Assembly: GCA_951406725.2 (NCBI GenBank)
Contig: OX597815.1
Location: forward strand, 215,078,001 to 215,142,000
DNA from: Octopus vulgaris
Lineage: Eukaryota
Length of the DNA: 64,000 bases
Direction of reading: 5' to 3'
Shown here: positions 19,001 through 64,000 of the stretch, in pieces
Layout of the letters: every line of letters begins with the position of its first letter
Position numbering within the stretch: the first letter of the stretch is position 1
Made by a program: the position numbers and the translations under genes
The notes under the pieces: model-generated
Seen by the model: only the letters and a program-made list of their open reading frames with translations
Database searches by the model: none
What the model was told of the DNA's origin: nothing

Positions 19001-19811
19001 GTATTCAGGATTTTCTGCCTCATTTCTGCCATAGACTCTCTGTTTTCTTCAGCAAATGCAAGATCTTCAGTTACTGTTGTTTTTTCGTTTTCCTGGCTAT
19101 CTTTAACAGGTACAATAGAATTTCTTGTATCTTCAGGCCTTTGCGTACTTTGGTCAGATGGCAGTCTTTCAATTAAGCCTCGTGGCGGGCTATACTGTTC
19201 ATCTGATTCTTCATTTCCTTTGTGTCTTATATTTATGTCATTTTCCGTTGCGTGCTTGATCGCGCTTATTTCACTGTCTGTGAGTCTGTTATTTCTAAGG
19301 ATATCCCTCCTCACATTTGCTAATTTGTTCTCGTCCAAATAGGGCCTACTGTCTTGATTCCGTGTTCTCCATATACTGTAAGAGTTTGCGGTGTGTCTCT
19401 CTTGAGATGGCCTACCTAATGCATAGTAATAAGCGTATATTACTTCTTTATACTCTTCTCGGGTCCATTTGTTCCGCTTACATTTTTCTTTCTGTGGTGG
19501 TTGTGGTGGTGAACTTGGAGGGCTCGAGTTGGGGGATTTCCCGTTCAAGTGACCATCCATGTCCGTATTCGGAGAAGAGTTTGTGCCAGTTGATGACTTT
19601 TCGATCCCAGGCTGGCTCTTCCCTGGGGGACGCGCTTCCAGATTAACCATAGGACAAGCGATTTGGTATACTGATTTAGTTTTCCTTTTAGTTTCCAAAA
19701 ACATTTTGGTGCTACGATAATGTTATCATTTTTTAGCTTTGATTGGCTCGTGGGGAGACGGCCATCATTGCCGTTACAATTATAATCGTACCATTATAGC
19801 AGCCGTAGTCG
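16042..19811 (-). mobile_element. R4/Dong-clade non-LTR retrotransposon, copy 2 (apparently both ends present, internally deleted)
   Basis: Single ORF broken into 18235-19704, 17760-18194, 17500-17745 and 16195-17490. Contains RT motifs (YMDD), a CCHC knuckle (CRFC..ETVDHLISGC), RHD and a PD..D restriction-like endonuclease (KPDIVV..LLIDMSIP..KY). 3' UTR is followed by (TAA)n. Confidence 0.95.
16195..17490 (-). pseudogene. C-terminal RT thumb, CCHC and restriction-like endonuclease segment of the R4/Dong ORF
   Basis: 431-aa open frame with GGRGL, LHG, AAQDQ, CCHC, RHD and PD-(D/E)xK motifs. Separated from the upstream RT by an in-frame TAG. Confidence 0.9.
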
Positions 19812-56680: not shown

Positions 56681-56877
56681 CACTACATATTTATGTTTAT
56701 TCTATTTCTTCACTTGAATGTTAACATTTTTTAATATTTATAGCACTATATTTTTTCTCTATTATTATTTTTATATACCATTATATATATATATATAATA
56801 ATAAATATTAGGGAATAAATCCAAATTTACAAGGAAAAATCAGATTTAAGATTGAATCCAATTTTATAGTAAAATAT

Positions 56878-57223
56878 TATATTATATCAAATTAGAGACA
56901 AAACCAATATTATACAAATCAAACAAAGAAAGACTTAAGCCAATACATAAAATAATTTATATAAATTAAAATTTAACACATGAATAACCACTACGATCGT
57001 TTCGTGTCAGCACATCTTAGACATTCTTCAGGTGGTTTCAAAACCTTCTTAGCTAAGAAGGTTTTGAAACCACCTGAAGAATGTCTAAGATGTGCTGACA
57101 CGAAACGATCGTAGTGGTTATTCATATGTTAAATTTTAATTTATATAAATTATTTTATGTATTGGCTTAAGTCTTTGTTTGATTTGTATAATAGTGGTTT
57201 TGTCTCTAATTTGATATAATATA
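56878..57223. repeat. Loopless palindrome (~172-bp arms, centre TTAG|CTAA); inverted Penelope-like terminal repeat
   Basis: Arms are reverse-complementary about 57052/57053 with a few substitutions and one 4-nt indel. Confidence 0.95.
57068..57119 (+). ncRNA. Type I hammerhead ribozyme motif (mirror copy on minus strand at 56986-57037)
   Basis: Stem I AACCAC/GTGGTT; CTGAAGA (57074-80); stem II TGTC/GACA; GAAA; palindromic stem III ACGATCGT; GTA triplet (57111-13). Confidence 0.85.
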
Positions 57224-61954: not shown

Positions 61955-63025
61955 TAGTTTTATTTTTATAGCGTGCTTTCACTTCACTACCGAGCTCAGC
62001 TCTGTGTGCCTTGGGTATGTGCTGTAATTTGTTGTGATGCTCTGATGGTTATTGTATGGAAAGTGTTCTGCGTAGGATGTGTGCAGTGCCTAGTAGTGCA
62101 ATTTTCTGTATGTTATATGTGTTTGTAAGTCCTGGTGTTTTTGTTATGTATTTGTCTGAATATTTTTTTATCATGCCTAATGCACCTACTATGATAGGAA
62201 TTGTTTCTGTTTTTAGATTCCACATTCTGGTTACCTCTATTTCCAGGTCTTTGTATTTTGAAAGTTTCTCCATTTCTTTTAGAGATACATTGTCATCTGC
62301 CGGTATTGATACATCAATTAGAAAGCATTTTTTTTCTTCATGATCTCTGACAACTATATCTGGTCTGTTGGCCTTAATTTCTCTATCTGTGTGTATCGGC
62401 ATATCCCAGAGTATGGTTGCTTTCTCGTTTTCTGTGACCTTTTCTGGTGTGTGCCTATACCATCTTTTTTCTGTTGTTATTCCATAATGTTGGCATAGCT
62501 TCCAATGTATGTAAGTTCCAACTCTGTCATGTCTGTGAATATATTCCTTCTTAGCCAGGACTGGGCAGCTAGAGATAATATGATTTATTGTTTCTTGTCC
62601 ATCTCCACATATTCTGCAGTTACTTGTAATATTTCTTTTCATTACATGTTTTTGGTAATTTCTGGTGGGGAGGCTTTGGTCTTGTGCTGCAATTAAAAAT
62701 CCCTCTGTTTCTGCTTTGAGTCCTGAGCTTCTCAACCATTGCTGGGATTTTTCTTTGTCTATTTCTTTTGCGTTTAGTTTAGTCCAGTATTTACCATGAA
62801 GGGGCTTTTCTTGCCATCGTTTTATCATGGTTCTTTGCTGTTCTATTTTTAGTTTGGATTTCATTTTTTTTATAGCTTTTGTTGTTTCTTCATCTTCTTC
62901 TTCTTCTTCATGTTTATTAGGTGGTATGATTTCTTGTTTGTATTTGTCAGCTTCCTTAAATACTGAGAACAGTTTTTTGTTTTGCTCGTGTTTTGCTGCT
63001 ATCTGGATCAGTTTTCCTTCCTTCC
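61952..63025 (-). mobile_element. 5'-truncated R4/Dong element (second family) inserted in (TAA)n
   Basis: Open ORF 62049-62864 with LHG, AAQDQ, CRIC..ETINHIISSC, RHD and RPDIVV..LIDVSIP..KY. Pure (TTA)n on both flanks. Confidence 0.93.
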
Positions 63026-63062
<37 letters not shown>

Positions 63063-63289
63063 TATTATTATTATTATTATTCAGTTGGTTAGTTATTTAA
63101 CTAACTAATCGATTGTTTGATTACTCATTCGGTTAATCACTCAGCCACAAGTTATGCTTGCCAAAGTCCTTTCGTCATTATTCTGAGTAGATTTGGTAGA
63201 CGGAAACCGAAAGAAGACCATGTATATATGTGTGTGTGTATGTGTGTGTGTCTGTGTGTGTCTATTATATATATAATATATATATATAT

Positions 63290-64000
63290 ATTTAAATAAT
63301 GAGGGAGATAAATTGAATATTAATTTAATTAATATCAATTTAAAACCAGTAGCCTAGCATATAAAAATCTGAGTAATTTATTCGGTGATAGACGAAACCG
63401 GTATACGATTAATTCTTGATTTTTATATAATTTTCATCTGTCTTGCCCGCCTATGTTCTGGTGTCCGCTGAATTTTCTCTGGAGAACATTCTTAGTAGTA
63501 GTTTGATCGTATGTGATCTACTTCTAGCAAATGGCTGCCCACATAGTGGTTTTTAGCCCTAAATATACACATGTATCGGAAGTTTCTCTGATTTTTCAGA
63601 TTTTTATATGCTACGCTACTGGTTTTAAATTGATATTAATTAAATTAATATTCTATTTATCTCCCTCATTATTTAAATGTTAAAAAAATTATGTTCTCTA
63701 ATAGGCAGCATTAACTGCAGTACATTATTTGCTGCAGAATTTGTTTCCGGAATTTAGCGCGCCAGAACTCAGACATTTGAAATTAACCACAATGTAATCG
63801 GTGAAATTAAGCACGTGTCTGGTTTTATACAGAAAACTGGTGGTTAGTTTTACAAATTATATTGCTTTTGGAACGATCGTACTGATGAATCTACGAACGA
63901 AGGATTACGTAATTTATTCGGTGATAGTCGAAATCGGTATACGATTAATTCTTGATTTTTATATAATTTTCATCTGTCTTGCCCGCCTATGTTCTGGTGT
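63290..64000 (+). mobile_element. Non-coding hammerhead-bearing tandem element (536-nt monomer) with inverted 5' arm
   Basis: 63373-63464 is repeated from 63909 onward. 63290-63372 is the reverse complement of 63596-63678. Confidence 0.85.
63876..63945 (+). ncRNA. Type I hammerhead ribozyme motif
   Basis: Stem I ATCGTA/TACGAT; CTGATGA (63882-88); long imperfect stem II; GAAA; stem III ATCGGT (ACCGGT in the upstream partial copy); GTA triplet (63937-39). Confidence 0.75.

What the first reader, a model, noticed from the sequence alone, without database searches (positions are those of the whole stretch)
63290..64000. 536-nt ORF-less tandem monomer with hammerhead and inverted 5' arm: best retrozyme candidate
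Seen: sequence from 63373 recurs at 63909 (period 536). The first copy begins inside the ribozyme (only ...TAGAC-GAAACCGGTA-TACGAT remains), while the second junction has the whole motif. An 83-bp inverted arm (63290-63372 versus 63596-63678, 2 mismatches) caps the 5' end. No ORF lies in the monomer. Established: partial-tandem plus inverted 5' structure is typical of Penelope insertions, and tandem hammerhead monomers can be processed to unit-length and circular RNAs in retrozymes. Inference: a non-autonomous unit able to yield a ~536-nt RNA.
Basis: partly seen in the sequence, partly recalled or inferred. Interest (0 to 1): 0.75.

Follow-up and report, generated by a model that had tools for sequence, protein, structure and literature searches.

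The report
Decayed Penelope-mobilised hammerhead retrozyme copy
This is one old, damaged copy of a protein-less jumping repeat of about 540 letters that carries a predicted self-cutting RNA motif, a known kind of element, and the ends of its many copies show two fixed start points about 105 letters apart that a Penelope-type enzyme likely used to paste it into TA repeats.

Summary
In detail: 536-nt period, 83-nt inverted arm, no ORF. The copy ends 106 nt past the window (1.37 units). It belongs to a dispersed family (at least 187 exact ribozyme-motif hits, one ~19-unit array) with a ~70%-identical sister family. The middle is not a Penelope ORF end. The hammerhead is supported family-wide (94% of cells paired, two compensatory pairs). 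This copy has only one ribozyme 5' half, and its complete motif carries a private U·U mismatch, a lost tetraloop and the subfamily's A·C closing mismatch, so it is unlikely to release a 536-nt RNA. Copies end at two fixed sites about 105 nt apart; two-armed insertions use one site at each end (17 of 17). The window's arm is this one-sided Penelope 'tail', longer than the 30-40 nt in the papers read. No coding partner sharing the repeat was found, and no RNA evidence for a circle. The scan noted the same two-start pattern earlier for 360- and ~490-nt families of this genome. Verdict: new member of a known kind (non-LTR retrozyme / non-autonomous Penelope-like element).

The parts
63263..63289 (.). 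(TA)n microsatellite at the left end, likely the insertion target
   Evidence: Sequence; family ends abut (TA)n/(CA)n in most loci
63290..63372 (-). 83-nt inverted arm = unit positions 306 to 224, lying wholly inside the one-sided tail; its outer end is the distal start site
63373..63908 (+). One 536-nt unit (family units about 540-552 nt), 33% GC, no ORF
63373..63410 (+). 3' half of a hammerhead (stem II 3' strand, GAAA, palindromic ACCGGT, predicted cut after 63403); 5' half missing
63523..63615 (+). Predicted long-range helix (63523-63532 with 63606-63615) enclosing the proximal start site; conserved in both sister families, broken on both strands in this copy (63530, 63614)
   Evidence: mostly invariant pairs, one pair with a two-sided change; for the two letters
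63569..63576 (+). Proximal (short) terminus, unit positions 197-204, AC-rich; the copy's own 3' end is this site in the second unit, 106 nt past the window
   Evidence: 40 of 77 forward ends
63577..63678 (+). ~105-nt Penelope-type tail between the two termini; distal (long) terminus at 63678
   Evidence: 30 of 77 forward ends at the distal site; 17 of 17 two-armed copies use opposite sites
63680..63870 (+). Middle of the unit; non-coding, conserved in the family, no Penelope protein likeness
63875..63946 (+). Complete type I hammerhead, predicted cut after 63939: stem I 63875-63881/63940-63946, core 63882-63888, long stem II 63889-63929, GAAA 63930-63933; damaged in this copy
63909..64000 (+). 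Second, partial unit (3' repeat); continues to G000:C2:215142106, then TACA/(TA)n and a LINE fragment

Best explanation
The stretch is a 5'-truncated, decayed copy (1.37 units plus an 83-nt inverted arm) of a dispersed, protein-less ~540-nt repeat with a predicted hammerhead ribozyme, likely pasted into a TA microsatellite by a borrowed Penelope-type enzyme. Shown: family, period, no ORF, two fixed termini about 105 nt apart, one at each end of two-armed insertions, TA/CA flanks, and RT+GIY-YIG Penelope elements with the same flanks in this genome. Inferred: the enzyme nicks both DNA strands and starts reverse transcription at two internal sites of the RNA. Here the proximal start gave 734 nt, running through one ribozyme junction, once round the unit and through a second junction, and stopped at the stem II loop. 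The distal start gave only 83 nt. The template had intact ribozyme junctions, most simply a re-joined ~540-nt circle (about even odds against an uncut read-through transcript). This copy is likely dead as a source of unit RNA.
For: Family: 139 matches in 39 scored of 2612 candidates; 155 and 32 exact ribozyme 5'-half hits vs 1 control hit each. Termini: of 77 loci, 40 end at unit 190-212, 30 at 295-312, 7 elsewhere; 29 have an inverted arm; in 17 of 17 with both ends canonical the ends are opposite (p 5e-6). Five more opposite pairs and none alike among 25 further loci (read by eye). The sister family shows 8 of 8 with a 96-nt tail (by eye). This matches two RT start sites and extension of both strands shown in vitro for a lizard Penelope (PMC11167929). 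Ribozyme: 94.3% of 1344 cells paired, 30-43% when slid; two compensatory pairs. The two repeats within a copy differ by 6.6% on average vs 11% median between copies (below the median in 41 of 42 pairs), as if identical at insertion. No 5' end falls at the predicted cut (unit 31/32); the nearest are 26, 28 and 44, and nine copies read through it. Coding Penelope elements with an intact 781-aa ORF, (TA)n ends and 456-504-nt partial tandems exist here.
Against: No coding element sharing this repeat was found: blastn gave no hit against 30 GIY-YIG loci and only a sister-family insertion and 25-28-nt matches against 27 longer ones; one search listed 150 scored matches of 6136 candidates, most not examined. 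The compensatory changes are two inherited events, and pairs-with-change did not beat the shuffle (498 of 500 reach it). The 10.1-11.1 pair is unpaired in 30 of 56 rows. Dispersed copies reach at most 1.6 units (847 nt), which a circle does not need to explain. Repeats within a copy are closer than the nearest other copy in only 11 of 42 pairs. At C15.2, 4 of 14 ribozyme pairs differ as C upstream and T terminal, more than background predicts (p 0.004); one circle copied twice should give identical letters. In vitro, uncut RNA was the main substrate (PMC11167929). The loci are best-scoring or first-listed hits, not a random sample.
Confidence: 0.78

Rival explanations
1. Same family and enzyme, but the template is a linear uncut read-through transcript from a partial-tandem master, with homology-guided jumps that rebuild the terminal repeat. 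The ribozyme is slow or dispensable and no circle is involved.
For: Ribozyme mutants did not change insertion and unprocessed RNA was the main substrate in vitro (PMC11167929). The window's subfamily spread with an A·C closing pair (30 of 80 loci typed AT at 10.1/10.2). C15.2>T in 17 of 73 terminal ribozymes vs 2.4% background. Only 1 of 9 predicted Xenopus retrozyme dimers cleaved (Li et al. 2026). Lengths look like ordinary 5' truncation.
Against: Compensatory changes and a switch to a palindromic, dimer-type stem III suggest cleavage was kept. No other site shows a shared upstream/terminal difference that a fixed dimer master would leave. The terminal vs upstream difference at 15.2 is not significant (17 of 73 vs 1 of 15, Fisher p 0.29).
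Confidence: 0.4
2. It is the truncated 3' end (pLTR plus 3' UTR) of an ordinary coding Penelope element.
For: Same terminal anatomy as coding elements; a long non-coding 3' UTR exists in coding families here. One copy abuts a Penelope ORF fragment (L282).
Against: In the 80 + 25 loci mapped, sequence upstream of a ribozyme is unit sequence up to the truncation point, never an ORF in line; a ~19-unit array exists; tblastn best E 0.33. In L282 the Penelope arms are 77% alike and the repeat arms 95%, so they are separate events of different age.
Confidence: 0.05
3. A satellite unit spread by DNA-level amplification or excision from the array at C2:212.11 Mb.
For: The array has higher-order repeats (periods 1101 and 1637) and near-identical unit pairs.
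Against: Array units form their own clade with private letters and do not include the window's subfamily. Fixed opposite termini, 5' truncation and inversions are retrotransposition marks, and the array itself has them.
Confidence: 0.03

Closest known systems
Metazoan non-LTR retrozymes (Cervera and de la Pena 2020, PMC7229834, passages seen; Li, Clavereau, Pollet 2026, bioRxiv 10.64898/2026.07.22.740005, parts 1-3 of 5 read)
   Same: ORF-less, low-GC repeat with one type I hammerhead per unit; monomers, partial dimers and an array; a stem II closing mismatch as in axolotl HHR_Amex2 (U·U, as in the sister family here); unit size within the 51-972 nt range of Li et al.
   Different: Unit ~540 nt vs 150-450 nt in the 2020 paper; long stem II with GNRA loop; A·C closing pair in this subfamily; mostly dispersed partial tandems; cleavage and circular RNA untested; this copy lacks two whole ribozymes.
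EN+ Penelope-like elements (PMC8557442 passages; PMC11167929 parts 1-2 of 4; PMC3846280 passages; PMC4209133 part 1 and passages)
   Same: Partial tandem (pLTR), adjacent inverted truncated copy, one-sided tail between two RT start sites, microsatellite targets, hammerhead with palindromic stem III.
   Different: No ORF; tail about 105 nt (96 in the sister family) vs 30-40 nt in those papers; no coding partner identified.
Non-autonomous Chlamys elements such as MRC1 (PMC8557442, passage)
   Same: Non-coding Penelope passengers forming pLTRs and head-to-tail copies.
   Different: Those resemble a coding family at the 3' end; that clade is described as lacking canonical hammerheads.

Membership tests
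Non-LTR retrozyme | Type I hammerhead in each repeat unit | tested here: met
   Family. Rfam does not reach threshold.
Non-LTR retrozyme | Tandem head-to-tail units of a few hundred nt, GC under 45% | tested here: met
   Period 536-552, GC 33%; ~19-unit array
Non-LTR retrozyme | No protein coding | tested here: met
Non-LTR retrozyme | Active copy: two consecutive units with complete hammerheads (Li et al. 2026) | tested here: not met
   Not met by this copy (one 5' half). Met by sequence in L003, L004, L006, probably L262, and the array.
Non-LTR retrozyme | Self-cleavage of the RNA | not testable with these tools
   Fold only: the constrained monomer ribozyme lies 11.7 kcal/mol above the free fold for this copy, 8-9 for intact palindromic-stem relatives, 2-3 for the long-stem-III subfamily
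Non-LTR retrozyme | Expressed as unit-length linear and circular RNA | tested here: inconclusive
   No listed holder is on record as RNA; contigs only
Penelope-like element (non-autonomous) | Partial tandem pLTR and adjacent inverted truncated copy | tested here: met
   29 of 77 loci have an inverted arm; 35 of 77 exceed one unit
Penelope-like element (non-autonomous) | One-sided tail between two fixed termini | tested here: met
   17 of 17; tail about 105 nt, longer than described
Penelope-like element (non-autonomous) | Terminal sequence shared with a coding partner | tested here: inconclusive
   None among the GIY-YIG loci examined; most of the 6136 candidates not examined
Autonomous Penelope-like element | RT plus GIY-YIG ORF between the repeats | tested here: not met

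The most novel reading that the evidence does not exclude
A ~540-nt ribozyme-made RNA circle is copied into DNA by a Penelope enzyme from two start sites held about 105 nt apart by a conserved helix, and the lineage has been selected for a deliberately slow ribozyme (A·C or U·U closing pair, palindromic stem III, recurrent C15.2U in the first-copied ribozyme) so that enough RNA stays uncut to be inserted.
Probability: 0.2. Interest if true: 0.6.

Novelty: new member of a known kind. Interest (0 to 1): 0.36.

Why it matters
How animal retrozymes re-enter the genome is still mostly inferred. This family gives a genomic footprint that ties an ORF-less hammerhead repeat to the two-start-site chemistry shown in vitro for a Penelope enzyme. 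It also gives exact start coordinates and natural ribozyme variants with which circle versus linear template can be tested. The copy in the window is itself a fossil, and younger families in the same genome, noted earlier by the scan, are better test material.

Tried and rejected
RNA evidence: no RNA holder listed. Contigs of runs only guessed to be RNA cover family variants; one 341-nt contig at depth 345 joins 63895 back to 63420 with many differing letters, but genomic partial tandems give the same joint, so it is no evidence. No splice joint from the GTAAGT in loop II was listed. ADAR footprint: rejected, A>G 0.97% vs T>C 1.26% of rare letters in 450 near-invariant columns; changes were not polarised on tree branches. 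Deaminase WRC bias: not significant (p 0.19 and 0.62). Terminal vs upstream bias at C15.2: not significant (p 0.29). A 12-nt pattern for that allele was at chance level (159 hits vs 329 control). One search's divergence and 5'/3' tables were spoiled by a 1-nt offset and redone by alignment; only its subfamily typing is used. My early note that the sister family's ribozyme is decayed was wrong. The array as master: rejected. L282 as a chimera naming the partner: rejected. Subfamily order: not resolved (midpoint root; repeat divergences overlap). The free fold of 63865-63955 is not the hammerhead and not better than shuffles (z 0.18); 63490-63700 likewise (z -0.61). The circular unit folds better than 40 shuffles (z -3.3; array unit -4.0), but this does not tell circle from line. 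Dropped rows: 3 of 80 loci without a usable forward end; distant reverse hits in L003 and L011; 5 of 61 ribozyme rows left out of alignment A1; in the sister family L126, L129 and L137 have reverse pieces not adjacent to the 5' end and were not counted.

Full report
Observation. The repeat, its 536-nt spacing, the 83-nt inverted arm with two mismatches and the lack of an ORF are all real. Beyond the window the repeat runs 106 nt further and ends in TACA/(TA)n before a LINE fragment. The insertion is therefore 83 nt inverted plus 734 nt forward, or 1.37 units. Below, m is the position in the unit (m1 = 63373).

Family. A DNA search gave 2612 candidates, 39 scored, 139 matches. Exact patterns for the ribozyme 5' half gave 155 hits (G at 10.1) and 32 hits (A at 10.1, the window's subfamily), against one control hit each. 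Eighty distinct loci were mapped on the unit and 25 more later; they are best-scoring or first-listed hits, not a random sample. Wherever a copy is long enough it repeats at the unit period, and none runs into an ORF in line. The element has no likeness to seven Penelope proteins from this genome (best E 0.33). One array of about 19 units (period 550, 88-89% matches, higher-order periods 1101 and 1637) lies at C2:212.108-212.119 Mb; its units form their own clade and are not the source of the window's subfamily. A sister family, about 70% alike with a 533-nt period, has 2777 candidates.

Ribozyme. Rfam does not call it. On 56 aligned copies the type I fold pairs 94.3% of 1344 cells, against 30-43% when slid. 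Two pairs change on both sides (stem I: UA 36, UG 14, CG 5; stem II: UA 33, CG 17). These are two inherited events, and the count of such pairs does not beat the shuffle. Subfamilies differ in stem III (a three-pair hairpin vs a palindromic ACCGGT of the kind proposed to work as a dimer, PMC4209133) and in the cut triplet (GUC vs GUA). The normally conserved G10.1-C11.1 pair (PMC4209133) is unpaired in 30 of 56 rows, A·C in the window's subfamily. It is U·U throughout the sister family, as in axolotl HHR_Amex2 (PMC7229834). The window's complete motif adds a private T at 63928, loss of the GUAA loop and C15.2>T. Its constrained monomer fold lies 11.7 kcal/mol above the free fold, against 8-9 and 2-3 for relatives. 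The upstream motif lacks CUGAUGA. Long-range pairing of the single 5' half with the intact upstream 3' half is possible on paper, but release of a unit needs both cuts. I infer that this copy is dead. Its repeats differ by 4.1% and its tree tip is 2.9%.

Termini. Of 77 loci, 40 end at m190-212, 30 at m295-312 and 7 elsewhere; the flanks printed are mostly (TA)n or (CA)n. Twenty-nine have an inverted arm. In all 17 where both ends are canonical, one is short and one long (p 5e-6). Five more such pairs appear, the array has the same ends, and the sister family shows 8 of 8 with a 96-nt gap (these two counts by eye). This is the one-sided Penelope tail. In vitro, a lizard Penelope protein cuts and extends both target strands and starts at two internal RNA sites, and the sequence between them is the tail (PMC11167929). 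The papers read give tails of 30-40 nt (PMC8557442, PMC3846280, PMC11167929); here it is about 105 nt. The window's arm (m306 to m224) is a copy begun at the distal site that stopped inside the tail. A ten-pair helix enclosing the proximal site is conserved between the two families but shows little covariation.

Mobiliser. [quoted passage not shown] By the linker description in PMC8557442 this is the Neptune/Nematis type. These elements have (TA)n ends, 456-504-nt partial tandems and variant hammerheads. None of the loci examined shares sequence with this unit, so the kind of enzyme is inferred and the partner is unknown.

Circle or line. For a circle: repeats within a copy look identical at insertion (mean 6.6% vs 11% between copies); no 5' end sits at the predicted cut while nine copies read through it; the ribozyme kept its pairing; and none of the 32 exact hits of the window's subfamily lie in an array. 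Against: dispersed copies reach only 1.6 units; the subfamily spread with a weakened closing pair; C15.2>T occurs in 17 of 73 terminal ribozymes, scattered over the tree, against 2.4% background; and 4 of 14 ribozyme pairs differ as C upstream, T terminal, though terminal vs upstream is not significant (p 0.29). Uncut RNA was the main substrate in vitro (PMC11167929). I put the odds about even. Sequencing runs gave nothing usable.

Comparison. It works like a non-autonomous Penelope passenger, and the family meets the sequence-level definition of a non-LTR retrozyme (PMC7229834; Li et al. 2026, who sampled no mollusc). Cleavage and circular RNA are untested, and this copy fails the two-ribozyme test. 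A search for cephalopod, hammerhead ribozyme and Penelope listed one paper; some searches were the other searches. The scan's own unchecked notes report the same two-start pattern for 360- and ~490-nt families of this genome; none matched this sequence. I saw the pattern, before those look-ups. Papers seen: Li et al., parts 1-3 of 5; PMC11167929, parts 1-2 of 4; PMC4209133, part 1 and passages; PMC8557442, PMC7229834 and PMC3846280, passages; no supplements. Hammerhead position numbering is applied from my own knowledge.

Verdict. A real feature and a new family of a known kind, represented in the window by a decayed copy. Interest 0.36.

Noticed in passing
window 56797-57223: A second, unrelated hammerhead element as a near-perfect palindrome (arms 56878-57052 / 57053-57223, a hammerhead on each strand). 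The left arm is about 80 nt longer, again a one-sided tail between (TA)n runs.
   Followed up: partly
G000:C2:212107971-212119237 (L182, L183): ~19-unit array of the same family with higher-order repeats, an inverted arm ending at the long site and a 3' end at the short site.
   Followed up: yes
L011:1-622 and L122-L151: Sister family (533-nt period) with a conserved U·U closing pair, a fully palindromic 10-nt stem III and a 96-nt tail.
   Followed up: partly
L112-L115: Young two-frame Penelope elements (479-aa upstream frame plus 781-aa RT/GIY-YIG frame) with 99-100% identical partial tandems and a hammerhead-like motif with U3/A8; another family (L120) has a CCGAAGA core.
   Followed up: no
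window 63373; L002; L015: Three copies begin at the top of the stem II hairpin, whose loop also reads as a splice donor (GTAAGT); possibly an RT stall point. Weak numbers.
   Followed up: partly
window 62052-63080, 16198-19722, 3-2656 (minus strand): Fragments of LINE-type frames; a short SINE-like end lies at about 63160-63260 (label recalled). A LINE fragment also follows the element beyond the window (L021:3140-5692).
   Followed up: no
L116 (G000:C11:74852900): A copy with an internal 261-nt duplication of the middle of the unit.
   Followed up: no
L282 (G000:C12:39005700): A copy joined at m88 to an older inverted Penelope ORF fragment; likely a deletion between neighbouring insertions.
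   Followed up: yes
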